In this document: piece after piece, positions 29,863 to 43,602 of the stretch
How the letters are laid out: every line of letters starts with the position of its first letter
Numbering within the stretch: position 1 is the stretch's first letter
From: Patescibacteria group bacterium
GTDB taxonomy: Bacteria > Patescibacteriota > Minisyncoccia > Phycocordibacterales > DATDWN01
Length of the DNA: 64,000 nucleotides
Assembly: GCA_040389125.1 (NCBI GenBank)
Contig: JAZKAN010000001.1
Location: 47,398-111,397, forward strand
Direction of reading: 5' to 3'
The notes under the pieces: model-generated
What the model was told of the DNA's origin: nothing
Seen by the model: only the letters and a program-made list of their open reading frames with translations
Database searches by the model: none
Position numbers and translations under genes: made by a program

Positions 29863-29914
29863 GCCATTCACAAAACTACTACAAAAGCCCCGCAAGGGGC
29901 TTTTGTTGTAACTT

Positions 29915-30928
29915 CTATTTTATTTTAATCTTCGCAAAATATTCTCGTATAAATGCATGGAATCTCGTGGCCGCCTCATTCTTTTCCGAATCAGTTCTTT
30001 GAAGGATATAGAGATATACCACCATGATAGATGAGGCATACATAACATAGAGATCATCGAGCTTTCGATTCACTGTGTAGCCACTTCCTTCCTCGTAGCC
30101 CACAAGAAAAGACTCGAACAAACTCTTGTTGTTAGTTAATGCCCATATATCCGTTCCCAATCGATACATCGGAATGAGACGATGATCTATGAGCCATTCT
30201 TCTTTTGGTGCATAGGTATCGATAAGATACAAAATTCCATCAGAAAAAATGGCGTTATGACTATGCAAGTCTCCACCCGTCACCATCTCGTCACTTAATC
30301 CGTTCTCAAACCACTCACGGTTTTCATGCCTAAATTTTTCTAGGAAATCGCAATACTCTTTAAATTCAGTTTCATCTACATACTCAGATACTCCAGATAC
30401 CCAATTTTGCAAATCAGTGATTCTTGCTTCAAATTTATTATAAAAATTTTGTTTTTCTGAAGGTTTTTTCTGGGCATTTTTGAGTGTTTCTCCAAGCTGT
30501 TTTCCTAGACTGAAACTTTCATCCTCCGAGAGTTTTCCTTTCAGTAATTTCTCAAATAATAAATCCTCTGTCTTAGCTTTGTTCATGACGATTACCACCT
30601 CATCGGCTTCATTCGTTGGTTCTGTAATCTTAATCTCACCATTATTAATATTGATTCCAATAACTTTTGCATAAATACTTGGACTTAATGTATGATTCCA
30701 CTCAAAATCGCTTTTGGTAAAATTCATTCGGTCTTTCTTCGGTGCGAGATCACGAAATGCTTTGTTGAAAAAATCATTGTCGTTTTTATAAAGTTTGTAG
30801 ACAGTCTTGTCAAAAATAAACACATTCGACATGACAGTTTCAATATGTTTCGGAATAGAAGTTTCATCGGCAATTTTGCCAGCTTTCATCAGTTCAACAA
30901 AGGGTTTTTGAGAATAATCCATGAACAT
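29915..30928 (-). CDS. Kinase-like phosphotransferase (APH/ChoK fold)
   Basis: Brenner-type GGDLHSHNAIF followed by LYLIDTY (catalytic loop plus metal-binding D). Start trimmed to ATG 30928 to avoid overlap with the upstream gene. Confidence 0.6.
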   Translation of the reverse strand: MFMDYSQKPFVELMKAGKIADETSIPKHIETVMSNVFIFDKTVYKLYKNDNDFFNKAFRDLAPKKDRMNFTKSDFEWNHTLSPSIYAKVIGININNGEIKITEPTNEADEVVIVMNKAKTEDLLFEKLLKGKLSEDESFSLGKQLGETLKNAQKKPSEKQNFYNKFEARITDLQNWVSGVSEYVDETEFKEYCDFLEKFRHENREWFENGLSDEMVTGGDLHSHNAIFSDGILYLIDTYAPKEEWLIDHRLIPMYRLGTDIWALTNNKSLFESFLVGYEEGSGYTVNRKLDDLYVMYASSIMVVYLYILQRTDSEKNEAATRFHAFIREYFAKIKIK

Positions 30929-30983
30929 ACTATACGCAAAAAGGGACCCGATGACAACATAGTCAAAGGGCCCCGCGAATGTA

Positions 30984-31721
30984 CTACTGACAGTCTGCAA
31001 TGAGCTCGACAAGATCGCTGTGGATCAAGCCGTTGCTGATGATGTGACCTTCCACGACGTCCTCTCCTTTATACCTGAGAGGGAAGCCGTGAATGTCTGT
31101 CGCCGTACCACCCGCCTCTTCGACGATGACTTGCATTGCCGAGGTCTCCCATGGCTTCTGGCCAGGGAAAACTGTAGCATCGAACTCGCCCGAAGCGACC
31201 AGCCCACCAAAGTACGCGATGGAAAGCGGATTCATCCACTTTCCGCCGACATCCATCAGCTTCTGGGAGAATGTATGCAGGTTGTACGGAGCATTTCTCC
31301 ACCAGAGCAAACAGACGTTAGAACTTTTCAGGCTCGAGCGCTGGGATACCTTAACTGCGGTATCTCCGTAGCTTCGCCGGATGAAAGCTCCGCGACCAGT
31401 CTCTGCGTGCCACGTCCGTTTCTGAAACGGATCATGGATCAGTCCACTGATCGCACATCCATTCCAAACCACTGAGATACAGAATGCCGATATCGGCATT
31501 CCAAGCGAAAATGGAATGGTGCCATCGACTGGATCGCAGTAGATGGTGTACTCCGCTTCACGAATGTCACCACAGCCTTCTTCGCCGATTACGCAGATGT
31601 GAGGGAAATCGCGGCGAAGCGAATCGATCACGAGTTGGTTGATTGCCGTGTCAGCTTGGGTGAGCGGGGTGTCATCTTCCTTGAACTCCCGTGCCATACC
31701 TAACTGAAATTTGTCTGTCAT
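30984..31721 (-). CDS. Inositol monophosphatase-family protein, GC-rich xenolog
   Basis: GEE, CDPVDGT and WETSAMQVIVEEAGG motifs. GGAGA lies 5 nt before ATG 31721. This is the second IMPase-family gene in the window and has a very different composition from 21111-21893. Confidence 0.75.
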   Translation of the reverse strand: MTDKFQLGMAREFKEDDTPLTQADTAINQLVIDSLRRDFPHICVIGEEGCGDIREAEYTIYCDPVDGTIPFSLGMPISAFCISVVWNGCAISGLIHDPFQKRTWHAETGRGAFIRRSYGDTAVKVSQRSSLKSSNVCLLWWRNAPYNLHTFSQKLMDVGGKWMNPLSIAYFGGLVASGEFDATVFPGQKPWETSAMQVIVEEAGGTATDIHGFPLRYKGEDVVEGHIISNGLIHSDLVELIADCQ

Positions 31722-31828
31722 AATATCTCCGGCCTTTAATGCAAGACCAAAAAGATATTGGGAATTCGGAAAATGTCGTCTGTTCAAGGTGCTACCTCCT
31801 AAGCTTTTCTGTAATTACCATACATTAC

Positions 31829-31856
31829 TTGCATATATTTGTCAATGTGATATAAT
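31829..31856 (+). promoter_or_regulatory. Promoter TTGCAT-16-TGaTATAAT for the radical SAM gene
   Basis: TTGCAT at 31829-31834 and TATAAT at 31851-31856, followed by SD AAAGGAG (31874-31880) and TTG 31888. Confidence 0.55.
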
Positions 31857-31887
31857 GTATCCAGAAACTCTTGAAAGGAGTAGCACA

Positions 31888-34098
31888 TTGAAACACAACA
31901 AGTTTACGGTGTTTCTATCGATTGTCTGTATTCTAAGTCTCTGCAATGTAGAGGCAAAAAGTACAGTCACTGTCGACTGGGATCACCATTCTCGATACAC
32001 ACCAAGAGATGGCTACATTGAACACAAGCCAGCTCTTTACTGCTACCAAAGCGAAGCACGTCGTGGAGTAGCGACATACGCTGATGGTCACACCGAGGAA
32101 TATTTCGTTTGTGAAGAATATCACGAGATACCGGTCCACGGATCTCAAGTGTTCGATCAACCGCTTATTGTAATCGAACAACCGTTCGATACACACAATG
32201 AAAGTATTCCGCTTCAACCGAAGTCACACTTTATTGTGTCGCTTCGGAAAATCACAGCAACGAAACCGGAGCCTATGCTTGGCATGTTGCTTCTCGGTCA
32301 GCGTCGCAGAACGAGAGTGATCGTCGTCGAGCCGCCGGCATTCAACCCGGTTCACATTCCATCTGCTGTATCGCTGCTTTCAGCAGTTCTCGCAGAGGAC
32401 GGACACGATGTGGAACCGCAGTGGGGTCACATTCTTGGGCTGGAACATTTGTTCCTGTCTCAGGGTAACCAATCCGACAAGGAGCGGGTAAAGTGGGCAC
32501 TGCACATCGTCAGGTCAGCTGACGCCAGCGTCCACGATCAATACCTCGCGCGCAAAATCTTCGAGAAAACATCGGAGGCGATCGCGACCAAAGACAAGTT
32601 TCGCTACGAGCGGAACAACGTCATCTACGCATCGCAATACCAAGACGGCACCATCGCTGGTGTCCTTCGGGGGATTGCAGATCGCGAGAACCACTTGTGG
32701 TACTCGTACTTCTCTGAAGTGGAGGTGCCGCACGCGAAGTTGTTCTGGCCTCACATGTATTGCATTTCAGTCGGAGACGAACGGCAGCTTTTCCCGGGAA
32801 TGATCCTGGCCTCGATGGTCAAGGATGCGCTTCCGGGTTGCAAGGTAATCGTGGGCGGAAACTTCTTCGGAAGAATTCCTGACCCGCGAAAATATCCTGA
32901 CTTCGAAAAGCTGTTCGATCACGTCGACGGCATCTGCTACGCCGAAGGCTTTCAACCCATCGTTCAGATGGCACGGAGACTCGATGTCGCCACGACATCC
33001 GGGATGATTTGGAGAAAGGGTAGTGAAGTGGTTGTAAATCCACGGACTAACTATCCGACGAAATTCACGACACTTCCCACACCCGATATGTATGGCAGTG
33101 CGGCACCATGGTCACCTGACTGGACCCCATCACTGTATACAAAGTCACATTGCCCGCTCGCTTGCAATTTCTGTGCGATTGAAGCTCAATCGGACGACTT
33201 TGCAGCTGGCCGGCTTGATGACCGTCCGAAAATCGCACCTCGCTCAATGACACCAATGCAGATTGCTAAACAAATGCAATCAATGTGTGCTCACAAATTT
33301 GATATCGTGGATGCACTCATGTCGATTTCAGAACAACTGGAACTCGGCAAGGCGCTTCGCACAATCGGCTACGAGGCAACATGGCAATGCTATCTGACAG
33401 TGACAGACAATTGTCTGAAACCTCAGGTGGCACAATCGCTTTACGACGCAGGGTGTCGCTCAGTCCAACTTGGACTGGAGACGCTACGGCCGGAGACCTG
33501 TTTCCAAATCCAGAAGCAATGGAATCATCCTTCGGGATACCACAAAATACTGGAGAATTTCAGGAATGCAGGAATCCACACACACGTGTTTCTGATTATC
33601 GGTCTACCGACGGAACCTCTATCTGAGGGACTGCGGTGGGTTGGTTTTCTCGAAAGGTACGGTCGTAACATTCTGACGATCAAGTCAGGACGCTGGCGGC
33701 CCGCTCGGTATGCACCCGAGGTGGAGAAGGGTCTGCTCGATGCACATGTCGAGTTGTATCCCGACACCAAACCGTTCCAGACCAACCGCTCGTTCCGCTA
33801 TCGCGATCCGATTCACTCGAATCAGAAAGTGAATGCGATGCGCGACATTGTGGAACAGGCGTGTCGTCGCCACTGGGCGTACAACGTGACGTCCACCATT
33901 CCGTGGTGGATCAATCGCAGTCGCTACACGTGGGAGGAGCTCGAGGAGATGGCCAAGCAATTACAGCCAGAACCCGACATTCGAGACCTCGATGAACAGA
34001 TCACGCAGATGCGAACCCTTGTTCGAAAAGAGTTGGGAAGAGAAGTCAACTTCCAGACCTGGGACGAACTGGCAGCATTCGCAGTAACCTTGTTGTAA
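31888..34098 (+). CDS. Radical SAM protein with a B12-binding-like N-terminal domain and an unusual signal-anchor extension; GC-rich
   Basis: CX3CX2C cluster SHCPLACNFCAIE. An upstream Rossmann-like segment RVIVVEPPAFNPVHIPSAVSLLSAVLAEDGHDV and a SVQLGLETL block. I propose TTG 31888 as the start (SD 7 nt upstream), giving MKHNKFTVFLSIVCILSLCNVEA. The track ORF start at 31711 overlaps the divergent gene and lies upstream of the promoter. Confidence 0.75.
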   Translation: MKHNKFTVFLSIVCILSLCNVEAKSTVTVDWDHHSRYTPRDGYIEHKPALYCYQSEARRGVATYADGHTEEYFVCEEYHEIPVHGSQVFDQPLIVIEQPFDTHNESIPLQPKSHFIVSLRKITATKPEPMLGMLLLGQRRRTRVIVVEPPAFNPVHIPSAVSLLSAVLAEDGHDVEPQWGHILGLEHLFLSQGNQSDKERVKWALHIVRSADASVHDQYLARKIFEKTSEAIATKDKFRYERNNVIYASQYQDGTIAGVLRGIADRENHLWYSYFSEVEVPHAKLFWPHMYCISVGDERQLFPGMILASMVKDALPGCKVIVGGNFFGRIPDPRKYPDFEKLFDHVDGICYAEGFQPIVQMARRLDVATTSGMIWRKGSEVVVNPRTNYPTKFTTLPTPDMYGSAAPWSPDWTPSLYTKSHCPLACNFCAIEAQSDDFAAGRLDDRPKIAPRSMTPMQIAKQMQSMCAHKFDIVDALMSISEQLELGKALRTIGYEATWQCYLTVTDNCLKPQVAQSLYDAGCRSVQLGLETLRPETCFQIQKQWNHPSGYHKILENFRNAGIHTHVFLIIGLPTEPLSEGLRWVGFLERYGRNILTIKSGRWRPARYAPEVEKGLLDAHVELYPDTKPFQTNRSFRYRDPIHSNQKVNAMRDIVEQACRRHWAYNVTSTIPWWINRSRYTWEELEEMAKQLQPEPDIRDLDEQITQMRTLVRKELGREVNFQTWDELAAFAVTLL

Positions 34099-34173
34099 AA
34101 CTTCGAACATAACCGATTTGTTATGTAGGCCCGCCGTTTTGGTTGGGTCTTTTCTTTTATAAATTTTCTTAAT

Positions 34174-35190
34174 TTAATCCTTCAGGGGATGAAATTTCTT
34201 ATGTGTACTTTCTGCATATTTATCCGATGCATGCACATAACGAGTAGTGGTGTCGAGTGACTCGTGACCAAGGAGGATTTGGATGGCAGCTGGGTTTGCA
34301 CCAGACTCTGCCAGGTACGTTGCGAAACCGTGTCGTAAAGAGTGGGCACTTGTCGGAACATTCATATCGAGTAGCTCTCGATATTTTTTTATTTTCATTT
34401 GCAGGTAGTTCGGAGAAATATGTTTGGAAAGGTCAGCTGCATTTAACCCCCTATTCGGAATGAAGAGGTAAGGGGAGTCATCCGCACGTTTTGCCAGGTA
34501 TGCGTCAATATGCTTTTTGGCACGGTCAGTCAGGTAGATGAATCGCTGTTTACGACCCTTGCCTCGAATAAATATTTTGCCACTTTTATCCAGCTGAACT
34601 TTCTTTAGACTAATGAGTTCTGAAATACGCATTCCACTTGCAAACAAAGTTTCGAGCGCTGCACGGTTTCGAAGTGCAACGAGTGTATTTTTTTCAAATT
34701 TGGTTGGGGATTCAATGAGTCGAACCAGATCCTTGAATTCAGATATCTGCGGATGCTTTTTGTCACCTCGCAGGAGTTTGATTGATCCTGGAACAATCGG
34801 TGTTGAAATATCCATATCGATCAGAAATGACAAGTACCGCCTGAGTGATACTAGAATTCTATTTATTGAATCCGGTTGTAAATACATTTCCGACTGCTGA
34901 CCACACGCAGTTTTCCTGTCTGGTGAGTTCAGTTCTGCCTTGAACTGTTCTATCGTTTTTTTGGATGCCTCACTAAAGGGGATATGAAGTGCACTGTGCA
35001 AAAAGGTATCAAATGTCATCAGATCACGTTCATAGTTGTACAGAGTTTCAGGAGAATAATTATTGGCACGAATGTGTAGTAGAAAATCATCAATAGATGG
35101 AAGTATCCATGCATATTCTTTTCTTTCTTTTTTTACCCTGACCTTCTGTGGGGGAGGGAGCGGTTTTTCTTTTTCTATCTTTTTATTCAT
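34174..35190 (-). CDS. Tyrosine recombinase (XerC/XerD/integrase family)
   Basis: C-terminal catalytic region HSLRHGFATYLAESGANPAAIQILLGHESLDTTTRYVH (R..HxxR..Y) and an N-terminal SAM-like core-binding domain. Confidence 0.85.
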   Translation of the reverse strand: MNKKIEKEKPLPPPQKVRVKKERKEYAWILPSIDDFLLHIRANNYSPETLYNYERDLMTFDTFLHSALHIPFSEASKKTIEQFKAELNSPDRKTACGQQSEMYLQPDSINRILVSLRRYLSFLIDMDISTPIVPGSIKLLRGDKKHPQISEFKDLVRLIESPTKFEKNTLVALRNRAALETLFASGMRISELISLKKVQLDKSGKIFIRGKGRKQRFIYLTDRAKKHIDAYLAKRADDSPYLFIPNRGLNAADLSKHISPNYLQMKIKKYRELLDMNVPTSAHSLRHGFATYLAESGANPAAIQILLGHESLDTTTRYVHASDKYAESTHKKFHPLKD

Positions 35191-35224
35191 TTTTATAGTT
35201 TTAATGTGTAGGGAAGGGATAGTA

Positions 35225-35258
35225 GTAACTGAGTATAATATCTCTAATACTCAGTTAC
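35225..35258. repeat. Perfect 12-bp inverted repeat with a 10-nt spacer upstream of the recombinase gene
   Basis: GTAACTGAGTAT (35225-35236), AATATCTCTA, then ATACTCAGTTAC (35247-35258). Confidence 0.8.
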
Positions 35259-35368
35259 AGTATAGTATACAGGAGGATTTCTCACAAGAGTCCTATCCCC
35301 AACCATAATGCAAAAAAACGACTCCCAATGAATCCAGTGAATCGGTTTCTTTTGAGTTGTCTAGCTAC

Positions 35369-35776
35369 TTACTCTTCCTCGGTTACTCCACCATCAAATT
35401 CCTCGTCACTATCCATCGCAATCTCTTTTGTTTCGTGGATAGTACCATCCTCGTGATGTGCTGGAGAATAAATTGTATACATTCGCAGATTCTCTGAATC
35501 CGATGTATTGATTACATTATGCTCTGCACCAGCAGGAATGATGACCACATCACCGTCTGCTACATCGTATTCAGTGTCATTTACTATGACCTTGCCTTCC
35601 CCGCTTTCAAATCTAAAAAATTGATCGTTGTCTGGGTGAGTCTCGAGTCCAATTTCCTCATTGGGCTGTAGAGTCATGAGCACGAGTTGCATGTGTTCAC
35701 CTGTGTACAAAACGCGTCGAAAGTCCTCATTTTCAAGTGTCAAATCTTCTATATTTGCAAAATATCCTGTTTTCAT
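35369..35776 (-). CDS. Cupin-domain protein
   Basis: Cupin motifs GLETHPDNDQ and IIPAGAEHNVINT, with an acidic C-terminal tail. Confidence 0.75.
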   Translation of the reverse strand: MKTGYFANIEDLTLENEDFRRVLYTGEHMQLVLMTLQPNEEIGLETHPDNDQFFRFESGEGKVIVNDTEYDVADGDVVIIPAGAEHNVINTSDSENLRMYTIYSPAHHEDGTIHETKEIAMDSDEEFDGGVTEEE

Positions 35777-35930
35777 AAATTTTGTTTATTTAATGATAAA
35801 TTCTGTAATACATTTAAAGGCAGTATATCTACCTAACTTTTGTCTCATCATTATCCACTACTCAAATAAAGAGTATATGAATGCTATTTAGTTTCAACAT
35901 ATCGCAACTAATCTAATATAGTTTAATATA

Positions 35931-36221
35931 TTATTCTAAAATTTCAAAAACTTTCTGTTTTGATGTCTGTCCAGAAATAAGTGTCACACATGACGGTGCA
36001 ACTTTAAAATACGTTGCAAGTGCACGTACAATCGCATCATTTGCCTTGCCCTGCACCGGAGCTTCCTTAACCGATACTTTATATGTAATCATTTCTGTTT
36101 TTTTTCCAGTTTCCGATAGGGTAGTCTCCCCTCTCAAACTGTTAAAATCCATAGCTGGTTGACCTACTCTTTCTACCATTTCCCCTTTTGCACGTGTCTT
36201 TGCTTTAACAATAATTCTCAT
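35931..36221 (-). CDS. DUF167/YggU-family protein
   Basis: VSVKEAPVQGKANDAIVRALATYFKV...VTLISGQTSKQKVFEI is collinear with the remembered E. coli YggU core (APPVDGQAN ... G..R.K). Confidence 0.7.
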   Translation of the reverse strand: MRIIVKAKTRAKGEMVERVGQPAMDFNSLRGETTLSETGKKTEMITYKVSVKEAPVQGKANDAIVRALATYFKVAPSCVTLISGQTSKQKVFEILE

Positions 36222-36293
36222 ATATATATAAATTATACACCAAAAAACAGGAAGTGATTTCCTGTTTTCTTCTACGAATTATACCTACGCTTA

Positions 36294-36518: not shown

Positions 36519-36565
36519 GTGATAAAATAAATTAAATTTAATAATACATATAGTATATATCATTG

Positions 36566-37831
36566 CTACAAAAACAATAAATCTCTATCTAAATCATCTG
36601 CATCTGTTCCTATACTTTTACGTTTCAATGCATTGTGTGTTGTGCCAAGATGCACTATATGTCGGCCAAACTTTTTTTCGAGCAGATCAATTTGTTTGTG
36701 AATTGTTTCAAATGTATGTGTAATTTCTGTACCACCAAACAAATCAAGCTGTGATGCTCGCTCTGGTACAAGACCGTGTAGCCCTATGCCAGTTGTGCGA
36801 TACAGTACACCCGGCTTATACATTTTTTTAAAATTCCCATGAGCAAGCGAAATAGGAATTTCTGGTGCATTTGTCGGAGAATCCAGCCTGACTGAACAGC
36901 TTGCATATCGAAACTCTTTTGTCTTGAGAAAAAACGAAATTTCTCTGGGTACAAGTTTATAATGCCGTGCCTTGCTACACGCATCCTCGATATTTTTCGA
37001 CAGTTGCGACAGGAGAAATATTTTGTCGTTTGTTGCGGGATGAAATGACCTCGTTTTCTGAATTGACCCGTATTCTGTTTTTGGTTCTGGATTAACACAC
37101 ATGACACTGACAGATGATAGTTCGAACCAGATTACCTCGTATGGTTTTGACATATGACTAGTGACCCACTCGCGTCCCTTGTGTAGAAAATCAAGTGCAG
37201 TGTCGACACCCTGCATACGTAGAAAATCCCGAGTAGCCCCACCAATACCCCAGATTTTTCCAATAGGAATCTGTGAGAGAAATTTGGGTGCAGTATCCAG
37301 CTCAATCACAGTCAATCCATTTGGCTTGACCCACTTGGATGCGACTTTAGCGAGGCATTTTGTCGGTCCGAGACCAATAGAAACAGAGAGGTTCATTTCT
37401 GTATTTACCTCGTGTTTTATCCGCTCTGCGATCTGCCTGTACGACATGTATAGTGGCTTATCGAGACCAGTCAGGTCTGCAAAACATTCATCGATACTGT
37501 ACTCCTCGACATCGTCCGCATATCTCCGCACAATATCAAACATCATACTCGAGTAGTGTGCATATGATGCATAGTCACCGGGCAATACGAGTACCTGTGG
37601 AAATTCTTTTTTGACACGAAATATCGGCATTCCCCGCACAATCCCGAGTGCTTTTGCCTCGTACGAAAGTGCAGAAACAATCCCGCGTTCCTCACCAGTT
37701 ACGACCGGCAGTCCGCGTAGTTTCGGATTTTTAGCCACTTCCACACCCACGAAAAAGGCATCTCCATCCATATGGAATATGACTTTTTGCTTTCTCCCCT
37801 TCTTTTGCTCGTTCTGTTCTCTCTCCCCCAT
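36566..37831 (-). CDS. dinB: Y-family DNA polymerase (DinB/UmuC-like)
   Basis: IFHMDGDAFFVGVE and SIDECFADLTG catalytic motifs. TATAAT (37838-37843) lies 6 nt before ATG 37831, so I prefer this start over 37867. Confidence 0.83.
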   Translation of the reverse strand: MGEREQNEQKKGRKQKVIFHMDGDAFFVGVEVAKNPKLRGLPVVTGEERGIVSALSYEAKALGIVRGMPIFRVKKEFPQVLVLPGDYASYAHYSSMMFDIVRRYADDVEEYSIDECFADLTGLDKPLYMSYRQIAERIKHEVNTEMNLSVSIGLGPTKCLAKVASKWVKPNGLTVIELDTAPKFLSQIPIGKIWGIGGATRDFLRMQGVDTALDFLHKGREWVTSHMSKPYEVIWFELSSVSVMCVNPEPKTEYGSIQKTRSFHPATNDKIFLLSQLSKNIEDACSKARHYKLVPREISFFLKTKEFRYASCSVRLDSPTNAPEIPISLAHGNFKKMYKPGVLYRTTGIGLHGLVPERASQLDLFGGTEITHTFETIHKQIDLLEKKFGRHIVHLGTTHNALKRKSIGTDADDLDRDLLFL

Positions 37832-37900
37832 TCCCCTATTATAGGTGAACATCCGTTCACCACGCAAGTGGATAAGAAAGTACTGAGCAGAGTGTTGTTC

Positions 37901-38194
37901 CTACCAAACTTTATAAAATTCTCGACTTCCCGCAGTATACATTTCGTGCATGTCCGCAAACGCTTCATTCATCTTTTTCATCTCTGGAGTCGGATTCGCC
38001 CATTTTTCAAACTGTTTTTCGTACTCAGTCAGATTTTCAAATTGACTTACCATAATCACCCGGTGATACTGGCCAGTCATATCTGTTAAAATGTTTACTG
38101 TTTCTGGAAACGTTCCCATATGTTCTTTGCACAACTTTGCTATTTTTGATGCATTCCCCGGCTTACAAATAAACGTGTCATGTACTTGAATCAT
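37901..38194 (-). CDS. Hypothetical protein (possibly a small alpha+beta barrel fold)
   Basis: A 97-aa ORF directly upstream of dinB with no motif recognised. Confidence 0.45.
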   Translation of the reverse strand: MIQVHDTFICKPGNASKIAKLCKEHMGTFPETVNILTDMTGQYHRVIMVSQFENLTEYEKQFEKWANPTPEMKKMNEAFADMHEMYTAGSREFYKVW

Positions 38195-38350
38195 ATTTTT
38201 ATTTATTTAAATTTTAATAGATTGTATTATCTCATATTTTTCCTCAAAATTCGATGAGGAAGTTAAAATTTATTTAGGATTTCACCTTTATTGACAAATA
38301 ATATATAGTATGTATTATATTACTTAGATTAAGTATGAAGGAGAACAGTA

Positions 38351-38998
38351 ATGGCAGAAAACGAGAAACAAAAACTGCCTTTTTCCATTCAGGAAAAGGA
38401 TGTTGCGGCTTGGACGGGGTGCTGGAACGCAAATCGAAAGATAATGATCAGTGGTGAATTAAACTATGAATCACTGAGAAAAGTGTCTCTCGAACTCATG
38501 AAATTGGACTATATCAATAATGAGCCGATCACTCTCATGATTGATAGTGGTGGAGGAAATGTTGTGGCGACACACCAACTCGAGGACATAATCTCGATGA
38601 TCAACTCCCCAGTGGACGGACTAATCATGGGCGATAGCGCATCCATGGCCATTGACCTCTTGCAGATGTGTAGGTATCGCAGGATTCTACCCTCTGCACG
38701 AATCCTGGTCCATTATATTAGAGTCGACCAGCGATGGGTATGTGATGATCTTGAACGGCTCGAAATTGACGTGGAATATTTTCTGAGTCGACAACGAGAG
38801 GCTGGTAATCGCAGGCTTGCACTCTATGTAAAACGGACTGGGTATCCGGAGGAAAGAATCAAAGAGCTCTTTCGACACGGCGAAGTTCATCGATCGTATT
38901 TTTCGGCACAGCAGGCACTCGAGCTAAAGCTAGTTGATGAGATCGCAGTTGGCTTTAAATTCTTTCCTCCCCGATCCTCCTCGGCAGAAGAAAAATAG
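38351..38998 (+). CDS. Divergent orphan ClpP/S14-family protease-like protein
   Basis: Collinear with ClpP: MIDSGGG (INSPGG), IMGDSASMAIDLL (catalytic Ser block GQAASMG), RILVHYI (His block VMIHQP), and YFSAQQALELKLVDEI (FLSAPEAVEYGLVDSI). The aligned catalytic Asp position reads R. SD AAGGAG lies 7 nt before the ATG and TTGACA sits at 38291. Confidence 0.65.
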   Translation: MAENEKQKLPFSIQEKDVAAWTGCWNANRKIMISGELNYESLRKVSLELMKLDYINNEPITLMIDSGGGNVVATHQLEDIISMINSPVDGLIMGDSASMAIDLLQMCRYRRILPSARILVHYIRVDQRWVCDDLERLEIDVEYFLSRQREAGNRRLALYVKRTGYPEERIKELFRHGEVHRSYFSAQQALELKLVDEIAVGFKFFPPRSSSAEEK

Positions 38999-39084
38999 AA
39001 TATTCCCTTATCTTGCCACAAGGCGCTCTGCATGGGGCGCCTTTTTGCTACATAAATAATTACCACCAAATTTCGATGAAGAAA

Positions 39085-39633
39085 CTAGAGTTTGATTGTG
39101 AGATTTGGCCATTTTTCTAACCACTTTTTCTTTTGTATTCTGGTTTTTATTCTTTCTATTCCATCCATATATTTTGGACTAGGTCGGACAATGAAACTAA
39201 CAATATCATCAATCCCATACGGAGCAATGAGTTTTAAAACACCATTTTCAATTCTTACTCCAACAGCGGTAACTGTCTCTGGCCAGGCCGCTATCACATC
39301 ATATGCAGAAACGTAGATTGATCGTGTATCAGATTTATAATTATACGCATTATTTCGCAACTCCCAATCCAAACCTGTTTCAGCATGTAGTGTCTGCATT
39401 AACTGTTCATCACGTTCCTGATCATTTTCAATAGTTGGATCAAAATACACTAAATCTATATCTGTTGCATCAAGATATTCTGTTTTTCGTCCAGACATAT
39501 GATTCCACACTTTATTTCTCACAAATCCCGCACCAATAAGCCAATCAGACAAGTTTAATTTCTCTGCACGTTTCAAAACGTCCATCATCCATTTGTCATT
39601 TTCTATAAGTTCAAGAATTTCTTTTTCTGTCAT
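39085..39633 (-). CDS. Pol-beta-superfamily nucleotidyltransferase-fold protein (NTP_transf_6-like by recollection)
   Basis: IGAGFVRN (hG[GS]) followed by DIDLVYFD (DxD). TATAAT (39640-39645) lies 6 nt before ATG 39633. Confidence 0.6.
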   Translation of the reverse strand: MTEKEILELIENDKWMMDVLKRAEKLNLSDWLIGAGFVRNKVWNHMSGRKTEYLDATDIDLVYFDPTIENDQERDEQLMQTLHAETGLDWELRNNAYNYKSDTRSIYVSAYDVIAAWPETVTAVGVRIENGVLKLIAPYGIDDIVSFIVRPSPKYMDGIERIKTRIQKKKWLEKWPNLTIKL

Positions 39634-39650
39634 AAGGCGATTATATTAAA

Positions 39651-40136
39651 CTAAAGCATCTTAACTATCCTAAATCCCTCATAACTTTTGTCTCCAGTAA
39701 CGTCGGTGAGTCTATATGGAAATGTATTTGGATTAAACAAATTTCTCTCTTCCGAATTTTCAGAATCTACTTCGAGTATACGAATTTTTTCACTAGCAAA
39801 TTCATCATATTTTAAAGAAAATGAAATACTATTTTGTATAAAATTAAATTCATGTCGTTTCTTTTCCAGATGTAGGATTGAAGTATCTAATAGATTTTTG
39901 TATTCATCTTCGCTGATCTTCTTTTTATCTGAAATTCTATTACCATTAGTTATTATTTTTGATACAAAGAAAATCTGAGTCTCTCCAGTCTCAAATGTTT
40001 TAAATACCACCTTCTTTTCTTTATCCTCTGCTGTTTCAATCCAATCAATAATTAGGTTAAAAGAGATTGAATTATTCTGAATCAAGAATTTTTGATCAAT
40101 TTTTTCAACTATGAATTTTCGAGCATTATCATCCAT
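39651..40136 (-). CDS. Divergent CYTH (triphosphate tunnel) domain protein
   Basis: Collinear with the remembered CYTH/TTM pattern: ARKFIV (EIERKFLV), LEKKRHEF (VEKTRY), IRILEVDSENSEE (LVEVEFLSEDAA), and LTDVTGDKSYEGFRI (VTEDKRYKNKAL). Canonical ExExK reads DNARK, so activity is uncertain. Confidence 0.5.
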   Translation of the reverse strand: MDDNARKFIVEKIDQKFLIQNNSISFNLIIDWIETAEDKEKKVVFKTFETGETQIFFVSKIITNGNRISDKKKISEDEYKNLLDTSILHLEKKRHEFNFIQNSISFSLKYDEFASEKIRILEVDSENSEERNLFNPNTFPYRLTDVTGDKSYEGFRIVKML

Positions 40137-40195
40137 TGATTACTGTATTTACTTTACATTAACATGTCAATTTTAGTGTGAACATCAGCAGAATT

Positions 40196-40417
40196 TTATT
40201 TTATCTTTTCTACTATATATTTAATGACATCTTTTAGCTGACCATACAGATCAACTACTGCTGATTTGAGAGTTCCCAGAAACTTTTGCATTTCCGGAGA
40301 TTTGAAAAATGCGAGGATATCAAAATTGTATTTGTAATGGAGAAAAATAAGAGCAATTATTACAATGATAATGAGGGAAATAAAACCTTGTTGATTGTCA
40401 GTATTTTTGTTTTTCAT
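40196..40417 (-). CDS. Small single-pass membrane protein
   Basis: A 73-aa ORF with one TM (FISLIIIVIIALIFL), upstream of and codirectional with the CYTH gene. Confidence 0.4.
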   Translation of the reverse strand: MKNKNTDNQQGFISLIIIVIIALIFLHYKYNFDILAFFKSPEMQKFLGTLKSAVVDLYGQLKDVIKYIVEKIK

Positions 40418-40522
40418 TGAATTATAATTTGGTTTGAATCATATAAATGGTACCACAGGCACTACTAATACAAAAGCGATTGTTTGATTATGGCTCACAT
40501 GATAAAATACATGTTATAAAAC

Positions 40523-41518
40523 ATGCCTAAAAACGCTATCAAAAAATTGAAATTTATGGACTTTTGTGCCGGTATCGGAGCTGGCCGTCTTGGTCTTGAA
40601 AAAAATGGCTTAAAATGTGTTGGTTTTTCTGAAATTGATCCTGAAGCTGAAAAAACTTATAGACTTTTCTTCGGAGAAAGTGAAAAAAATTATGGTGATC
40701 TGACTAAAATTGATCCTAAATCACTCCCCGATTTTGACATGATGATTGCAGGTTTCCCTTGCCAATCTTTTTCTATTATTGGAGAAAGAAAAGGTATGGA
40801 CGATGAACGAGGGCAAATTATTTTTAGTCTCATTAATATAATGCTAGCTAAAAATGTAAAATACTTTATTCTTGAAAATGTAAAAGGACTTACAAACCAT
40901 GAAGGCGGAAATACTCTTAGGGTTATTTTAGATCAACTGGATAAAGCCGGTTATCAAGTTGAGTATGATGTTTTGAATAGCCTCAATTATGGTGTTCCTC
41001 AAATGAGAGAGAGAATTTATTTTGTTGGAGTAAGAAAAGACCTTGTAGACAAAGATTTTTACTATCAATTTCCAGAGTCTCAATCAAGAGTAAGTGTTAC
41101 TGATTACTTGATTGATGATAGTGAACTTGAACTCAATGAGAGACATGATACCTACGAGACTTTTTTAAAGTATCTACAGAATAAATATAATCGTGGAGAA
41201 TATTCTGTCGATCAGTTATTGGAAAAAAATTATAACGTTATAGATACAAGACAATCAGATATAAGAATATACGACAACAAAGTCCCTACCCTACGAACAG
41301 GTAGGCACGGAATTTTATATGTAAAAGATAACAAATTTAGGAAGCTATCTGGTTTTGAATCTCTGTTACTACAAGGTTTTCCAAAAGAAATCGCTACAAA
41401 GGCTAAGAATAAAATTGAAGAGTTGCATTTGTTAAAACAAACTGGAAATGCTATGACTGTGAGTGTAATTGAGGCGGTAGGTAGACAACTATTCAATAAT
41501 TTACAAACTTCTGCATGA
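40523..41518 (+). CDS. DNA (cytosine-5)-methyltransferase
   Basis: Motif I FCAGIGAGRLG, motif IV GFPCQSFS, motif VI ENVKGL, motif VIII QMRERIYFVG, and motif X QTGNAMTV. Confidence 0.92.
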   Translation: MPKNAIKKLKFMDFCAGIGAGRLGLEKNGLKCVGFSEIDPEAEKTYRLFFGESEKNYGDLTKIDPKSLPDFDMMIAGFPCQSFSIIGERKGMDDERGQIIFSLINIMLAKNVKYFILENVKGLTNHEGGNTLRVILDQLDKAGYQVEYDVLNSLNYGVPQMRERIYFVGVRKDLVDKDFYYQFPESQSRVSVTDYLIDDSELELNERHDTYETFLKYLQNKYNRGEYSVDQLLEKNYNVIDTRQSDIRIYDNKVPTLRTGRHGILYVKDNKFRKLSGFESLLLQGFPKEIATKAKNKIEELHLLKQTGNAMTVSVIEAVGRQLFNNLQTSA

Positions 41519-42294
41519 AAATAAACAAAAAGACTGTTTTGGAAGCCATAGCCCGAGGATCAAAAACTGCAAAAGCAGGTTTTAGTAATGAGCAAGATGT
41601 TATAAACATCTTTAATAATTGGAAAACTGATAAGGTCGCTAAAGAATGGTTGGGTGCGATGAATTACAATGTATCTGATATTGAATTTGTAAAAGCAACT
41701 AAAGTTAGAGGTCATTATAAAGCAGATATTCAAGTGAGAATAATGATTATTATTAAGTTGAAATCTCAAGAGGATGTCCAGAACTTACAAGTAAAACTAG
41801 TGAGTAATCCTCAAGGTTTTAATCAAATTGATAAAAGATGGGTAGATAAGTATGTGGAACTTTGGAATATTCCCTCTGATCTGACTGCCATACTAAAACT
41901 TTTTACTGGAGAAACCATACCAACACAAAGTAATTTAGAAGACCCTCGCAGAATGTTTTTATTTGAGATGAGCCAATCTGACCAAGATAAACTGATACAA
42001 TTCTTTACTAAAAATAAAATCCTAATTGTTTCAGATTTATTGAAAGGTAGAGGTGAATTTTCTGCCGACTGGACACTTGTTATTCTAAAGGTTGGTGCGG
42101 AAGAAAGCCGTTGGATGTTAAAGTCAATCAATGAAGTCATGAATGTCTTTGGTAAGGGCGAAGTGAGAATTACTAATCAAGGTGGTCTAAAAATCGGCAA
42201 GATTGGTATGCAAAGAAAGGGTGGAGATGGTGGTAGAAAGACTGCAAGTATGTTGCAATTCAAAATTAATCCTGTTGAACTTTTTACAGAGTAA
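41515..42294 (+). CDS. Type II restriction endonuclease, HinP1I/MspI-like
   Basis: ATGA overlap with the methyltransferase gene. The blocks QVKLVSNPQGFNQIDKRW and QRKGGDGGRKTASMLQFKINPVELF match my recollection of R.HinP1I/R.MspI. Specificity is not determinable here. Confidence 0.6.
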   Translation: MKINKKTVLEAIARGSKTAKAGFSNEQDVINIFNNWKTDKVAKEWLGAMNYNVSDIEFVKATKVRGHYKADIQVRIMIIIKLKSQEDVQNLQVKLVSNPQGFNQIDKRWVDKYVELWNIPSDLTAILKLFTGETIPTQSNLEDPRRMFLFEMSQSDQDKLIQFFTKNKILIVSDLLKGRGEFSADWTLVILKVGAEESRWMLKSINEVMNVFGKGEVRITNQGGLKIGKIGMQRKGGDGGRKTASMLQFKINPVELFTE

Positions 42295-42300
42295 AAATCA

Positions 42301-42328
42301 TTGACTTTTTGGTGTAGAAGTTCATAAT
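42301..42328 (+). promoter_or_regulatory. Promoter TTGACT-16-CATAAT, with the -10 box 6 nt before the TIR gene ATG
   Basis: TTGACT at 42301-42306, CATAAT at 42323-42328, AGCTTC, then ATG at 42335. Confidence 0.6.
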
Positions 42329-42334
42329 AGCTTC

Positions 42335-42916
42335 ATGTCATCGCTCTATTCTCAACCAAATCAACCTGAAAAAAGAAAAGTTTTTATTAGTTTTCACCAT
42401 GCAGATGAATGGTATCGTAACGAATTTATTCGACGATGGGGAGATCAATTTATCGGTACAGACGTTAAACTTGGAGATATAGATACTGAAAACAGCGATG
42501 ATTACACCAAACGATTGATACAAGTTGACCACATTGTTAATTCAAGTGTGGTTGTTGCTATTTATGGAACTCACACAAGAAAACGTAAACATGTAGACTG
42601 GGAAATATCTGCAGGTTTAAATGAAAAAGTGGGCGGTCATAAGGGATTAGTAGTCTTAATTGTTCCCGGTTTCCCCGGCCACCCTTTTGACCAAAATGGT
42701 GTTTATGATAAAGCTCTTTTGTATCCACATCTTCACCCTAGAACAGCAGAAAATGTGAAAACGGAGTATGCAGATGTTTATTTTTGGCCGGATATGTACA
42801 CTAATCTAAATCCTGTTGAAGTCAAAGACCTTGTAGAACTTGCCTCAAAAAAGCGAGAGAGTCACAGTCATTTGATAGAGAATTCTCATCCTCAATATGT
42901 CAATAACTTGCCATGA
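42335..42916 (+). CDS. ThsB-like TIR domain protein (DUF1863/TIR-like)
   Basis: RKVFISFHHADE (ThsB KRVFFSFHYQD), TKRLIQ...SSVVVAIYGTHT (LKRLI...TSVTCVLIGSQT), and HVDWEISAGL (WVRYEIMKSI, which contains the conserved Glu). Confidence 0.7.
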   Translation: MSSLYSQPNQPEKRKVFISFHHADEWYRNEFIRRWGDQFIGTDVKLGDIDTENSDDYTKRLIQVDHIVNSSVVVAIYGTHTRKRKHVDWEISAGLNEKVGGHKGLVVLIVPGFPGHPFDQNGVYDKALLYPHLHPRTAENVKTEYADVYFWPDMYTNLNPVEVKDLVELASKKRESHSHLIENSHPQYVNNLP

Positions 42917-43602
42917 CAGCCACAAGCTCACTCGCAACTTTATTTTCTTTATCTCTTAATCGGGATTTATCTCTTGCAATAATACTCAACCCTATAGCAA
43001 TTCTAATCGTAGTTTTAATATGCGTAATTTTTTTCACAATACGCTGGTACTTTTGGAGAGGCAATAATTTTGTAATAGATACCGCAGAAATGGGTATCGG
43101 CTCACATAAAATTTCTTTTAAACCAAACATAAGAGACCAAGAAATAGCATATAAAATATGGGTTGAGTTAAGCACAAGAAAAATCGGACTACCCATTGAT
43201 TTAGAACACGATGTTATATCAGAAATTTACGACTCATGGTTCAACTTCTTTTCCATTACAAGGGAATTAATTAAAGACATACCCGTAAACAAAGTAAAAA
43301 ACCAAAGCACAAGAAAAATAATAACTCTATCTATAAGCGTATTGAACGAGGGACTTCGACCACACCTAACAACATGGCAAGCACGCTTTCGTCGGTGGTA
43401 TGATAGACAACTTGCAAATGCAACAGATGACGCTGACCCACAAGCAATTCAAGAAAAATACCCTAAATTTAGCGAACTAAAAACAGATTTAATTGCTGTT
43501 AATAAAAGGCTAATTAAGTATAGGGAGAAAATGCGGGAAGTTGTTTTAGGTATTCCCGAGGTTGAAAATAAAGTCCCCCCTCTCTCTGAACCCGTTTTGT
43601 AG
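42913..43602 (+). CDS. Uncharacterised single-pass membrane protein coupled to the TIR gene
   Basis: The start ATG overlaps the TIR stop (ATGA). One TM (LAIILNPIAILIVVLICVIFFTI) is followed by about 170 aa of helical-looking sequence with no motif I recognise. Confidence 0.6.
   Translation: MTATSSLATLFSLSLNRDLSLAIILNPIAILIVVLICVIFFTIRWYFWRGNNFVIDTAEMGIGSHKISFKPNIRDQEIAYKIWVELSTRKIGLPIDLEHDVISEIYDSWFNFFSITRELIKDIPVNKVKNQSTRKIITLSISVLNEGLRPHLTTWQARFRRWYDRQLANATDDADPQAIQEKYPKFSELKTDLIAVNKRLIKYREKMREVVLGIPEVENKVPPLSEPVL

What the first reader, a model, noticed from the sequence alone, without database searches (positions are those of the whole stretch)
29915..43602. A 13.7-kb accessory region between housekeeping blocks, with a recombinase and several defence-type modules
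Orphan or accessory genes fill the stretch between the DsbA/lysozyme-like genes and dnaJ. In order they are:
- an APH-like kinase
- a GC-rich IMPase-like/radical SAM islet
- a tyrosine recombinase
- a cupin and a DUF167 protein
- a small secreted protein
- a Y-family polymerase
- a ClpP-like protein
- a CYTH-like protein, an NTase and a small TM protein
- a C5-MTase with its REase
- the TIR protein and its TM partner

Composition changes abruptly several times, by hand counts on sampled 60-nt lines. This looks like a hotspot or defence island that grew by multiple insertions rather than one element.
Basis: partly seen in the sequence, partly recalled or inferred. Interest (0 to 1): 0.55.

Follow-up and report, generated by a model that had tools for sequence, protein, structure and literature searches.

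The report
Gene-insertion hotspot around a Xer/dif module
In this tiny-genome (CPR/Paceibacteria) bacterium, the 13.7-kb stretch is a real patchwork of separately acquired genes, but its "recombinase" is a conserved housekeeping Xer enzyme sitting beside a nearly invariant 28-bp dif-like site, and the DNA on both sides of that pair is where this lineage repeatedly gains and loses genes.

Summary
The region is real and accessory relative to relatives. In about 15 Zambryskibacteria-like MAGs, dnaJ, g27834 and the lysozyme-like gene are adjacent, and only 0.5-4.8 kb separates them from the M23-peptidase/GluRS block.

It is not one element and mostly not a defence island. PADLOC recognises only the HinP1I-type R-M pair and, weakly, the TIR protein.

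The tyrosine recombinase is Xer-like. It is 69-77% identical across 80 metagenome loci. In about 35 long contigs it lies in this same slot between the M23 peptidase and the lysozyme-like gene. It is preceded by a 28-bp 11-6-11 palindrome (window 35228-35255), unique in the window and present once upstream of the gene in 74 of the 80 loci. I read this as a dif site beside its recombinase, as in XerS/difSL and XerH/difH.

The two gaps flanking the module are far more variable than neighbouring gene junctions (medians 1.2 and 1.8 kb against 8-243 bp).

Segment 27.8-40.45 kb is inverted relative to relatives.

Composition shows two real discontinuities:
- a GC-rich IMPase/radical-SAM islet;
- an AT-rich patch at 39-43 kb.

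Gene strands converge here, suggesting the replication terminus; that inference is weaker.

The parts
27810..40450 (.). Segment inverted relative to relatives. It runs from g27834 through DsbA, the lysozyme-like gene, cargo, xer/dif and more cargo to the 73-aa TM gene.
   Evidence: About 15 MAGs have dnaJ>g27834>lyso>[slot]<tm73<M23<GluRS. About 35 contigs have M23>xer><lyso. The window has M23>g27834>DsbA>lyso>...<xer...<tm73...<dnaJ. One inversion reconciles all of these. Both junctions are present in independent Logan contigs L083 and L001.
28402..29133 (+). DsbA-like thioredoxin-fold protein, just outside the finding. It is itself variably present.
   Evidence: Pfam Thioredoxin_4/DSBA. No tblastn hit in the 80 dnaJ loci. 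Present between dnaJ and the lysozyme-like gene in the P0008 contig.
29293..29862 (+). Lysozyme-like (SLT_3, weak) conserved flank gene. It marks one edge of the variable slot.
   Evidence: 54-71% identical in 16 dnaJ loci and 38-58% in 38 xer loci. Pfam SLT_3 E=0.03.
29881..29906 (.). Terminator-like hairpin between the convergent lysozyme-like and APH-like genes.
   Evidence: 11-bp stem with 6 GC pairs, followed by a T run.
29915..30889 (-). 324-aa orphan. A kinase-like fold is possible but unproven.
   Evidence: Sub-threshold Kinase-PolyVal and APH hits over the HxDxxxxN-like stretch GDLHSHN. Gene call of 324 aa in L082. Absent from all relatives' loci.
30984..31721 (-). IMPase-family phosphatase, part of the GC-rich islet.
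   Evidence: Pfam Inositol_P 1.4e-36. GC 0.52 and GC3 0.58, robust z 4.1. A second paralogue lies at 21111-21893.
31855..34098 (+). 747-aa radical SAM protein, part of the GC-rich islet. It looks like an itinerant single gene.
   Evidence: Pfam Radical_SAM. Only 68 homologues, and every one that carries a source name is Patescibacteria or Uhrbacteria. It is GC-richer than its host in four different contexts. It lies between the lysozyme-like gene and an integrase gene, downstream of dnaJ and DsbA, in the P0008 contig.
34174..35190 (-). Xer-type tyrosine recombinase, a conserved resident of this locus.
   Evidence: NCBIfam XerC 181, XerD 174 and XerA 157 bits, all below the equivalog cut-offs. 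Nearest PDB chains are P. abyssi XerA, E. coli XerD and XerH. The R..K..HxxR..H..Y residues are visible in the sequence. 80 loci at 69-77% identity, in the same slot in about 35 long contigs.
35228..35255 (-). Putative dif site, ACTGAGTATTA-GAGATA-TTATACTCAGT (11-6-11), 37 bp upstream of the xer ATG and overlapping its promoter-like region.
   Evidence: Unique in the window, with 0 expected by chance. Found once, upstream of xer, in 74 of 80 loci. It forms an island of 66-100% column identity (97-100% at 23 of 28 positions) while the flanks sit at 30-50%. The right arm is invariant apart from position 27. 16/28 identical to E. coli and B. subtilis dif. The -10 element of a promoter-like site ends at 35259.
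35369..38194 (-). Cargo block with host-like composition: cupin, DUF167, an 89-aa secreted-looking protein, a Y-family polymerase (36566-37831) and a 97-aa orphan.
   Evidence: Pfam. NCBIfam DinB-like, below cut-offs. Tetranucleotide z about -1. Only the polymerase recurs at this locus, in L028 (64%) and L087 (43%).
38351..38998 (+). Divergent ClpP-like serine protease.
   Evidence: Pfam CLP_protease 64 bits. All NCBIfam hits are far below their cut-offs. No PADLOC hit and no viral relative.
39085..40136 (-). NTP_transf_6 nucleotidyltransferase (39085-39633) and a 161-aa orphan (39651-40136). This is not a conserved pair.
   Evidence: Pfam 9.6e-44 for the nucleotidyltransferase and nothing for the orphan. 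The orphan has only 23 homologues, and in the one context examined it is not next to an NTase. No PADLOC hits.
40196..40417 (-). 73-aa single-TM protein, a conserved neighbour of the M23 peptidase gene in relatives.
   Evidence: tblastn hits in 9 loci, always next to M23. Homologous ORFs are visible in L003 and L005.
40523..42294 (+). Complete Type II R-M operon: C5-cytosine methylase plus an R.HinP1I-family endonuclease, with a 4-bp overlap.
   Evidence: Pfam 4.8e-76 and 2.6e-85. PADLOC MTase_II 9e-108 and REase_II 7e-92. GCGC is the most depleted 4-nt palindrome in the window, O/E 0.68. GC 0.33-0.34.
42335..43602 (+). ThsB-like TIR protein (42335-42916) plus a 229-aa TM/helical partner (42913-43602), with a 4-bp overlap. 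This is a portable two-gene module.
   Evidence: Pfam ThsB_TIR 7e-14. PADLOC PDC-M50B and ThsB at about 1e-7. The partner has more than 1,796 homologues. The pair recurs with the same overlap in other contexts, beside large serine recombinases. The partner's model is all-helical with no PDB fold match.
43673..44764 (-). dnaJ, the right-hand housekeeping flank (grpE-dnaK-dnaJ).
   Evidence: Pfam. In relatives it is followed directly by g27834.

Best explanation
The interval is the flexible zone on both sides of a conserved xer-dif module, at the point where two oppositely oriented housekeeping gene blocks converge. That point is probably the replication terminus of a Zambryskibacteria-like CPR chromosome.

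Shown here:
- The Xer-type recombinase and a sharply delimited 28-bp 11-6-11 palindrome just upstream of it are conserved together at this chromosomal position across many Paceibacteria.
- The two gaps flanking the module (M23 to dif, and the xer 3' end to the lysozyme-like gene) vary from under 0.1 kb to 4.6 and 6.9 kb between genomes, while neighbouring junctions stay tight.
- In this genome the gaps hold 5.2 kb and 4.3 kb of cargo, and a further 3.1 kb (R-M plus TIR/TM) lies next to dnaJ.
- The cargo has at least five distinguishable origins: the APH-like orphan; the GC-rich IMPase/rSAM islet; a host-like cupin-to-ClpP block; the AT-rich NTase/orphan pair; and the AT-rich R-M and TIR/TM operons.
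- A 12.6-kb inversion, roughly centred on xer/dif, has flipped the whole middle of the locus.

Inferred:
- The palindrome is the chromosome-dimer resolution site (dif), and the recombinase acts on it.
- The locus tolerates insertions because it is a convergent, terminus-proximal, non-operonic junction.
- Cargo arrived by separate insertion and recombination events, not through the recombinase.
- Only the R-M pair (probable GCGC specificity) and the TIR/TM pair are defence functions.
For: - Synteny with relatives.
- Conserved xer position and identity.
- Conserved unique site.
- Junction-variability control.
- Variable and mostly non-defence cargo in relatives' slots.
- Per-gene and tetranucleotide composition.
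- Different contexts for the rSAM, TIR/TM and orphan homologues.
- Xer family assignment.
- No flanking repeats and no tRNA.
- Independent contigs spanning the junctions.
- Strand convergence: 26 of 27 genes on + to the left and 15 of 16 on - to the right.
- GC skew of +0.03 on the left and -0.08 on the right.
- Published precedent that a dif site next to the xer gene marks the single-recombinase systems XerS/difSL and XerH/difH (PMC5357621), and the 11-6-11 definition of dif (PMC2958812).
Against: - The closest relatives by DnaJ (L002-L028) have neither xer nor the site within 10 kb of dnaJ. The module is therefore not fixed at this locus in every lineage.
- The GC skew is weak and follows gene strand. 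In relatives' 21-kb loci the cumulative-skew maximum is often far from the site. The terminus assignment is therefore not secure.
- No whole-genome data were available on site copy number, a second xer paralogue or FtsK.
- The site overlaps the xer promoter-like region, so an operator role is possible. The position 2/27 co-variation would also fit a hairpin.
- The relatives are only 58-76% identical in DnaJ, so no insertion can be dated or shown to be strain-variable.
Confidence: 0.68

Rival explanations
1. The whole interval is one integrated mobile element (genomic island, ICE or prophage remnant) delivered by its own tyrosine integrase.
For: A tyrosine recombinase lies inside a block of accessory genes. 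A ClpP-like protein gives a faint hit to prohead proteases, 35 bits against a cut-off of 120.
Against: - The recombinase and its site are conserved at this locus in dozens of genomes whose surrounding cargo differs.
- There are no att-like direct repeats and no tRNA.
- No phage or conjugation genes were found. TM229, ClpP-like and rSAM have no relatives in IMG/VR.
- The interval contains three compositional classes.
Confidence: 0.03
2. The region is a defence island: most modules, including NTase plus partner, ClpP-like, APH-like and rSAM, are undescribed anti-phage systems clustered with the R-M and TIR systems.
For: Two defence-type operons lie side by side at 40.5-43.6 kb. Guilt by association would extend to their neighbours. 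The TIR/TM pair sits beside R-M systems and serine recombinases elsewhere.
Against: - PADLOC finds nothing in the other eight cargo proteins tested.
- The NTase and its neighbour are not a conserved pair in the one other context examined.
- The same slots in relatives hold mostly metabolic or transport genes.
- The 34-39 kb block is compositionally native.
Confidence: 0.12
3. The conserved 28-bp palindrome is not a recombination site. It is an autoregulatory operator or a 5'-UTR hairpin of the recombinase gene. The locus is variable simply because convergent gene ends tolerate insertions.
For: The site overlaps the promoter-like -10/+1 region of xer. Arm positions 2 and 27 co-vary, and a 9-12 bp stem can form.
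Against: - The 11-6-11 geometry fits dif, and the sequence is 16/28 identical to E. coli and B. subtilis dif, including the ATATTAT core.
- The 'loop' is almost invariant.
- Uncompensated left-arm changes occur (C.A mismatch in 3 of 18 variants, and a conserved T.T), with a right arm invariant except at position 27. This is the asymmetry typical of dif arms.
- The orientation is reversed relative to the gene in L121 and L144, which is awkward for a promoter-embedded operator.
- An operator role and a dif role are not mutually exclusive.
Confidence: 0.2
4. The region is an assembly or binning chimera, with GC-rich foreign DNA wrongly joined into the contig.
For: GC jumps abruptly from 0.37 to 0.52 at about 31 kb.
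Against: - An independently assembled Logan contig (L082) runs continuously from lyso through APH-like, IMPase and rSAM to xer and the dif-like site. L083 and L001 cover the other junctions.
- rSAM homologues are GC-rich singletons in three other ~40% GC host contigs.
Confidence: 0.02

Closest known systems
Single-recombinase Xer modules with the dif site next to the gene (XerS/difSL of streptococci and lactococci; XerH/difH of Helicobacter and Campylobacter)
   Same: The recombinase gene and its conserved palindromic site form one compact module (site 37 bp from the ATG). The site is single-copy in every stretch examined. It lies where gene strands converge (PMC5357621).
   Different: By sequence the protein is closer to XerC, XerD and XerA than to XerS or XerH. 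The site has the canonical 11-6-11 layout, whereas difSL is 31 bp with an 11-bp centre. Whether the genome has only one Xer, and whether FtsK is involved, was not testable.
Canonical XerCD/dif and archaeal XerA/dif
   Same: 28 bp with 11-bp arms and a 6-bp spacer. 16/28 identical to E. coli and B. subtilis dif, within the 14-18/28 range reported for archaeal dif (PMC2958812). One arm is more conserved than the other.
   Different: In those systems dif is not next to the xer genes. Here it lies in the gene's own upstream region.
Terminus-proximal flexible regions and integration hotspots, including IMEX elements at dif and Acinetobacter dif modules
   Same: Accessory genes accumulate immediately beside dif, and the junction is variable in many genomes.
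   Different: No second dif-like or pseudo-dif copy flanks any cargo, at up to 9 mismatches in the window and up to 6 in 80 loci. The full site does not occur in IMG/VR, GenBank phages or PLSDB plasmids. Xer-mediated capture therefore has no support here.
Defence islands
   Same: A Type II R-M operon and a TIR-based pair are adjacent.
   Different: Only 3.1 of 13.7 kb is defence-like. The remaining cargo has no defence-family match.
Thoeris (ThsB TIR plus ThsA effector)
   Same: The TIR protein matches ThsB_TIR and PADLOC ThsB/PDC-M50B. It keeps the W-E motif (VDWEIS). It is translationally coupled to a membrane protein.
   Different: The partner has no SIR2, SLOG or Macro domain, no PADLOC ThsA match and no PDB fold match.

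Membership tests
Integrative element carried by a tyrosine integrase (genomic island, ICE or prophage) | The integrase travels with the cargo and is absent from empty sites | tested here: not met
   The recombinase is present at this locus with different or almost no cargo in about 35 contigs. In L104, for example, the gaps are 437 bp upstream and 42 bp downstream.
Integrative element carried by a tyrosine integrase (genomic island, ICE or prophage) | Direct att repeats at both ends, often at a tRNA gene | tested here: not met
   No tRNA or tmRNA in the window. Only short, chance-level repeats across 26-46 kb.
Xer/dif chromosome-dimer resolution system | Tyrosine recombinase of the Xer clade with the full catalytic set | tested here: met
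   Best NCBIfam hits are XerC, XerD and XerA, all below the equivalog cut-offs. Best PDB hits are XerA, XerD and XerH. R (MRISE), K (GKGRK), HxxR (HSLRH), H (LGH) and Y (RYVH) are visible in the translation.
Xer/dif chromosome-dimer resolution system | About 28-bp site with two 11-bp imperfect inverted arms and a 6-8 bp centre, conserved among relatives | tested here: met
   ACTGAGTATTA-GAGATA-TTATACTCAGT. 62 distinct site-plus-flank sequences give 18 site variants, with a sharply bounded conservation island.
Xer/dif chromosome-dimer resolution system | Single copy per chromosome | tested here: inconclusive
   One copy in the 64-kb window and one per locus in 74 loci. Whole genomes could not be scanned.
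Xer/dif chromosome-dimer resolution system | Location at the replication terminus (GC-skew switch) | tested here: inconclusive
   Gene strands converge here and skew changes from +0.03 to -0.08. The skew is weak, it follows gene strand, and it is noisy in relatives.
Xer/dif chromosome-dimer resolution system | Recombinase binds and recombines the site; FtsK dependence | not testable with these tools
   Needs biochemistry or genetics.
Type II restriction-modification (HinP1I type, GCGC) | Cognate methylase and endonuclease genes adjacent and intact | tested here: met
   DNA_methylase 257 bits over its full length. R-HINP1I 286 bits over profile positions 1-208 of 208. The two genes overlap by 4 bp.
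Type II restriction-modification (HinP1I type, GCGC) | Recognition specificity GCGC | tested here: inconclusive
   Inferred from family membership. GCGC is the most depleted 4-nt palindrome, 62 observed against 91 expected.
Thoeris | ThsB-type TIR protein | tested here: met
   PF08937 7e-14 and PADLOC ThsB about 1e-7.
Thoeris | ThsA effector (SIR2-SLOG, or TM plus Macro) | tested here: not met
   The partner has no PADLOC or Pfam match, and its helical model has no PDB match at E<0.3.
Defence island | Several recognised defence systems clustered together | tested here: inconclusive
   One certain system (R-M) and one candidate (TIR/TM) are adjacent. The other eight cargo proteins have no PADLOC match.
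IMEX / dif-module (Xer-captured cargo) | Cargo bounded by dif and a second dif-like site | tested here: not met
   No second site at up to 9 mismatches in the window or up to 6 in the loci. No full site in the viral or plasmid collections.

The most novel reading that the evidence does not exclude
Paceibacteria (CPR) resolve chromosome dimers with a single Xer recombinase whose canonical-format 28-bp dif lies in the promoter region of its own gene. This xer-dif module is also the lineage's main gene-acquisition site, with the recombinase itself taking part in capturing cargo (IMEX-like, without leaving a second site) and in the local inversions seen here and in L121 and L144.
Probability: 0.1. 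Interest if true: 0.75.

Novelty: new member of a known kind. Interest (0 to 1): 0.5.

Why it matters
CPR/Patescibacteria have tiny genomes and no genetic tools. Where their chromosomes end replication, how they resolve dimers and where they take up foreign genes are all largely uncharted.

The full-text searches of the held library found no paper describing a dif site for this group. An almost invariant 28-bp site that is easy to search for, paired with its recombinase, would have three uses:
- It gives a practical terminus marker for checking CPR genome assemblies.
- It gives a directly testable recombinase and site pair.
- It identifies a defined locus at which to look for strain-variable genes, including defence genes.

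For the original finding, the result corrects a common misreading. A tyrosine recombinase inside a block of accessory genes is not necessarily the integrase of an island.

Tried and rejected
- Canonical dif consensus scans of the window gave only a promoter-like AT-rich hit at 38291-38318. I rejected it.
- A repeat search for att sites or inversion-junction repeats over 26-46 kb found only short, chance-level pairs.
- tRNA and Rfam scans of the window found nothing.
- IMG/VR scans with TM229, ClpP-like and rSAM found no relatives.
- An IMG/VR scan with the 17-nt core of the site gave 19 hits. None has the arms or a xer gene, so they are chance matches or an unrelated repeat.
- blastn of the site against GenBank phages and PLSDB plasmids gave no match.
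- GC skew in relatives' 21-kb loci was too noisy to place a terminus.
- Sequence searches for a CYTH fold in ORF 39651-40136 and for an APH fold in 29915-30889 found nothing usable.
- A structure prediction and PDB fold search of the TIR partner gave a helical bundle with no informative match.
- The NTase plus orphan as a conserved module was rejected.
- IMPase plus rSAM as a conserved pair was rejected. Every rSAM homologue whose context was examined lacks an adjacent IMPase.

Full report
**What is there.** The window comes from a Zambryskibacteria-like member of the Paceibacteria (CPR). Its DnaJ is 72-76% identical to the best MAGs in GTDB. An identical rSAM protein is on record from an NCBI 'Patescibacteria group bacterium' MAG whose contig is 263,509 bp long.

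- IMPase family
- radical SAM
- tyrosine recombinase
- cupin
- DUF167
- Y-family polymerase
- a divergent ClpP-like protein
- an NTP_transf_6 nucleotidyltransferase
- a C5-methylase with an R.HinP1I-family endonuclease
- a ThsB-type TIR protein followed by a membrane protein

Two labels do not hold up. 'CYTH-like' (39651-40136) has no support from any library or from PDB sequences. 'APH-like' rests on sub-threshold kinase hits only.

The flanks are housekeeping genes. On the left are mraY, ftsW, murG, GluRS and an M23 peptidase. On the right are grpE, dnaK, dnaJ, ribosomal proteins, rpoA and AlaRS.

Three independently assembled Logan contigs from one sample span the unusual junctions. The arrangement is therefore not an assembly chimera.

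**Is it accessory?** I ran tblastn with all window proteins against 80 dnaJ loci from GTDB genomes. About 15 related MAGs share a conserved order: dnaK, dnaJ, g27834, lysozyme-like gene, a variable gap, then (on the other strand) a 73-aa TM gene, the M23 peptidase and GluRS.

The distance from the lysozyme-like gene to M23 is 0.5-4.8 kb in these MAGs, and its content differs from genome to genome. Examples are a four-gene block (ORFs of 348, 356, 226 and 290 aa) that I read from their translations, without a family search, as pyrimidine-synthesis genes; what looks like a flavoprotein; and secreted-looking proteins.

None of the window's cargo is present in these loci, apart from a Y-family polymerase in L028 and a DUF167 in L069. 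The accessory character of the region is therefore confirmed.

**The recombinase is not an island integrase.** By NCBIfam it is Xer-like (XerC 181, XerD 174 and XerA 157 bits), although every hit falls below its equivalog cut-off. The nearest solved structures are P. abyssi XerA, E. coli XerD and XerH.

A metagenome scan returned 80 loci whose product is 69-77% identical. That is far more conserved than the neighbouring MraY, FtsW, MurG, GluRS and M23 proteins in the same contigs, which are 36-66% identical. In about 35 long contigs the order is mraY, ftsW, murG, GluRS, M23, xer, then the lysozyme-like gene on the opposite strand. The gene is thus a conserved resident of this very slot.

**A dif-like site.** A palindrome, ACTGAGTATTA-GAGATA-TTATACTCAGT, lies at window 35228-35255, 37 bp upstream of the xer start codon.
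- It is unique in the 64-kb window, with none expected by chance.
- It occurs once, upstream of the gene, in 74 of the 80 loci. In all but two of these (L121, L144) it has the same orientation.
- Across 62 distinct site-plus-flank sequences, 23 of its 28 columns are 97-100% identical and the other five are 66-84%. The flanks drop at once to 30-50%.
- The right arm is invariant apart from position 27. The left arm varies at positions 2, 7 and 8. Positions 2 and 27 co-vary through three base-pair types. Other left-arm changes are uncompensated.
- The 11-6-11 layout matches the published definition of dif (PMC2958812).
- The site shares 16 of 28 positions with both E. coli and B. subtilis dif, including the ATATTAT core (the reference sequences are from my own knowledge).
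- A dif site beside the xer gene is described as a hallmark of the single-recombinase systems XerS/difSL and XerH/difH (PMC5357621).

My full-text searches of the held library returned no paper describing a dif site for CPR bacteria.

The site overlaps a promoter-like element of xer, so an operator role is possible as well. I put that rival reading at 0.2.

**Hotspot test with a control.** I measured the gaps between consecutive conserved genes across the non-redundant xer loci.

| Junction | Median gap | Share above 1 kb | Maximum |
|---|---|---|---|
| Seven ordinary junctions | 8-243 bp | 0-11% | - |
| M23 to xer | 1.16 kb | 60% | 4.6 kb |
| xer to lysozyme-like gene | 1.84 kb | 56% | 6.9 kb |

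The equivalent gaps in the window are 5.2 kb and 4.3 kb.

The 112 ORFs that fill these gaps in relatives are mostly not defence genes. They include EVE domains, Asp/Glu racemases, MFS transporters, DoxX, T4SS pilins, S24 peptidases, HAD hydrolases and oxidative pentose-phosphate genes. Only one is a DNA methylase.

**Inversion.** In relatives, dnaJ is followed by g27834 and the lysozyme-like gene, and M23 is followed by the 73-aa TM gene and xer. In the window, M23 is followed by g27834, DsbA and the lysozyme-like gene, while the TM gene and xer point the other way.

A single inversion of about 27.8-40.45 kb restores both ancestral adjacencies. It also reproduces the order dnaJ, DsbA, lysozyme-like gene, rSAM, integrase seen in the contig of rSAM homologue P0008. 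In that contig the integrase gene points the opposite way.

The inverted segment is roughly centred on xer/dif: its midpoint is 34.1 kb and the site is at 35.2 kb. Symmetric inversions of this kind are typical around replication termini. I treat this as suggestive only.

**Several origins.** Per-gene GC and a tetranucleotide scan both show two anomalous patches.
- The IMPase/rSAM islet has GC 0.50-0.52 and GC3 0.54-0.58, against a core median GC3 of 0.33. Its tetranucleotide z reaches 8.2, the highest value in the window.
- An AT-rich patch at 39-43 kb has z of 4-5.
- The Xer, cupin, DUF167, polymerase and ClpP-like genes are compositionally native (z about -1).

The cargo genes also differ in how they are distributed elsewhere.
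- The rSAM family has only 68 members. It is a GC-rich singleton in three other ~40% GC host contigs, each in a different context.
- The TM partner of the TIR protein has more than 1,796 homologues at 57-78% identity. The pair keeps its 4-bp overlap in unrelated contexts, beside large serine recombinases and Type I R-M genes.
- The 161-aa orphan has 23 homologues and no conserved NTase neighbour.

No att-like repeats, tRNA genes or viral relatives were found. No second dif-like site bounds any cargo. Neither a single element nor Xer-mediated (IMEX-type) capture is therefore supported.

**Defence content.** The R-M operon is complete. GCGC, the recognition site expected for this family, is the most under-represented 4-nt palindrome in the window, with 62 observed against 91 expected.

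The TIR protein keeps the W-E motif. Its partner lacks every ThsA hallmark, and its AlphaFold model (pLDDT 75) is a helical bundle with no PDB match. The pair is Thoeris-like in logic but is not a Thoeris member. The remaining cargo has no PADLOC match.

**Terminus.** The evidence has three parts.
- On the left, 26 of 27 genes are on the + strand. On the right, 15 of 16 are on the - strand.
- Plus-strand GC skew changes from +0.03 to -0.08.
- The one counter-oriented gene on the right has negative coding-strand GC3 skew, as a replication-driven bias would predict.

The skew is weak, it is confounded with gene strand, and it is noisy in relatives. I put the terminus reading at about 0.55.

**Verdict.** The 'defence island' label fits only the 3.1 kb next to dnaJ. 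The recombinase is best read as the housekeeping Xer of a xer-dif module around which the variable DNA accumulates.

One caveat stands. The closest DnaJ relatives (L002-L028) lack xer and the site at this locus. The module has therefore moved or been lost there.

Noticed in passing
window 4427-6529 (-): A 700-aa ORF with no Pfam match. Its GC is 0.495, and it is the only counter-oriented gene in the left block. Tetranucleotide z is 5.8, making it a second compositional island in the window.
   Followed up: partly
window 7213-9528 (+): A 771-aa ORF with very high second-position GC (0.59) and low GC3 (0.22). Tetranucleotide z is 6.3. It is probably a low-complexity surface protein.
   Followed up: no
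window 31855-34098; L165 5909-8053; L190 1719-3887; L191 200-2317: The 68-member radical SAM family is a GC-rich singleton (GC 0.47-0.54, GC3 0.44-0.63) in four different ~40% GC hosts. It sits in a different genomic context in each and has no conserved partner or recombinase. It behaves like an itinerant single gene.
   Followed up: partly
window 42335-43602; L166 3672-4942; L168 7417-8693: The TIR protein (193-195 aa) and its TM/helical partner (229-230 aa) keep a 4-bp overlap. The partner is very widespread in Patescibacteria, with more than 1,796 homologues. The pair often lies beside large serine recombinases. The partner's fold has no PDB match.
   Followed up: partly
L121 416-443; L144 about 594-621: In two metagenome contigs the dif-like site is in the opposite orientation relative to the xer gene.
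   Followed up: no
whole window: GCGC is the most depleted 4-nt palindrome (O/E 0.68). This matches the expected specificity of the resident HinP1I-type R-M.
   Followed up: yes
window 49029-49478 (-): A Fic/DOC-domain gene lies between grpE and the ribosomal protein L13 gene.
   Followed up: no
window 21111-21893 (+): A second Inositol_P-family paralogue lies inside the mraY-ftsW cell-wall cluster. It is compositionally native, unlike the GC-rich copy at 30984-31721.
   Followed up: no
contig of P0008 (ERZ1426846, no DNA held): The order dnaJ, DsbA, 155-aa gene, rSAM, Phage_integrase resembles the un-inverted window, although the integrase gene there points the opposite way. A 562-aa serine recombinase lies upstream of dnaJ.
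   Followed up: partly
L174, L179, L186 (IMGVR_UViG_3300021963_000042): One 127-kb viral contig carries three copies of a repeat, ttttcgactaacTTAGAGTTATTATACTCcaaacc, that shares only the 17-nt core with the dif-like site. It is probably unrelated.
   Followed up: partly
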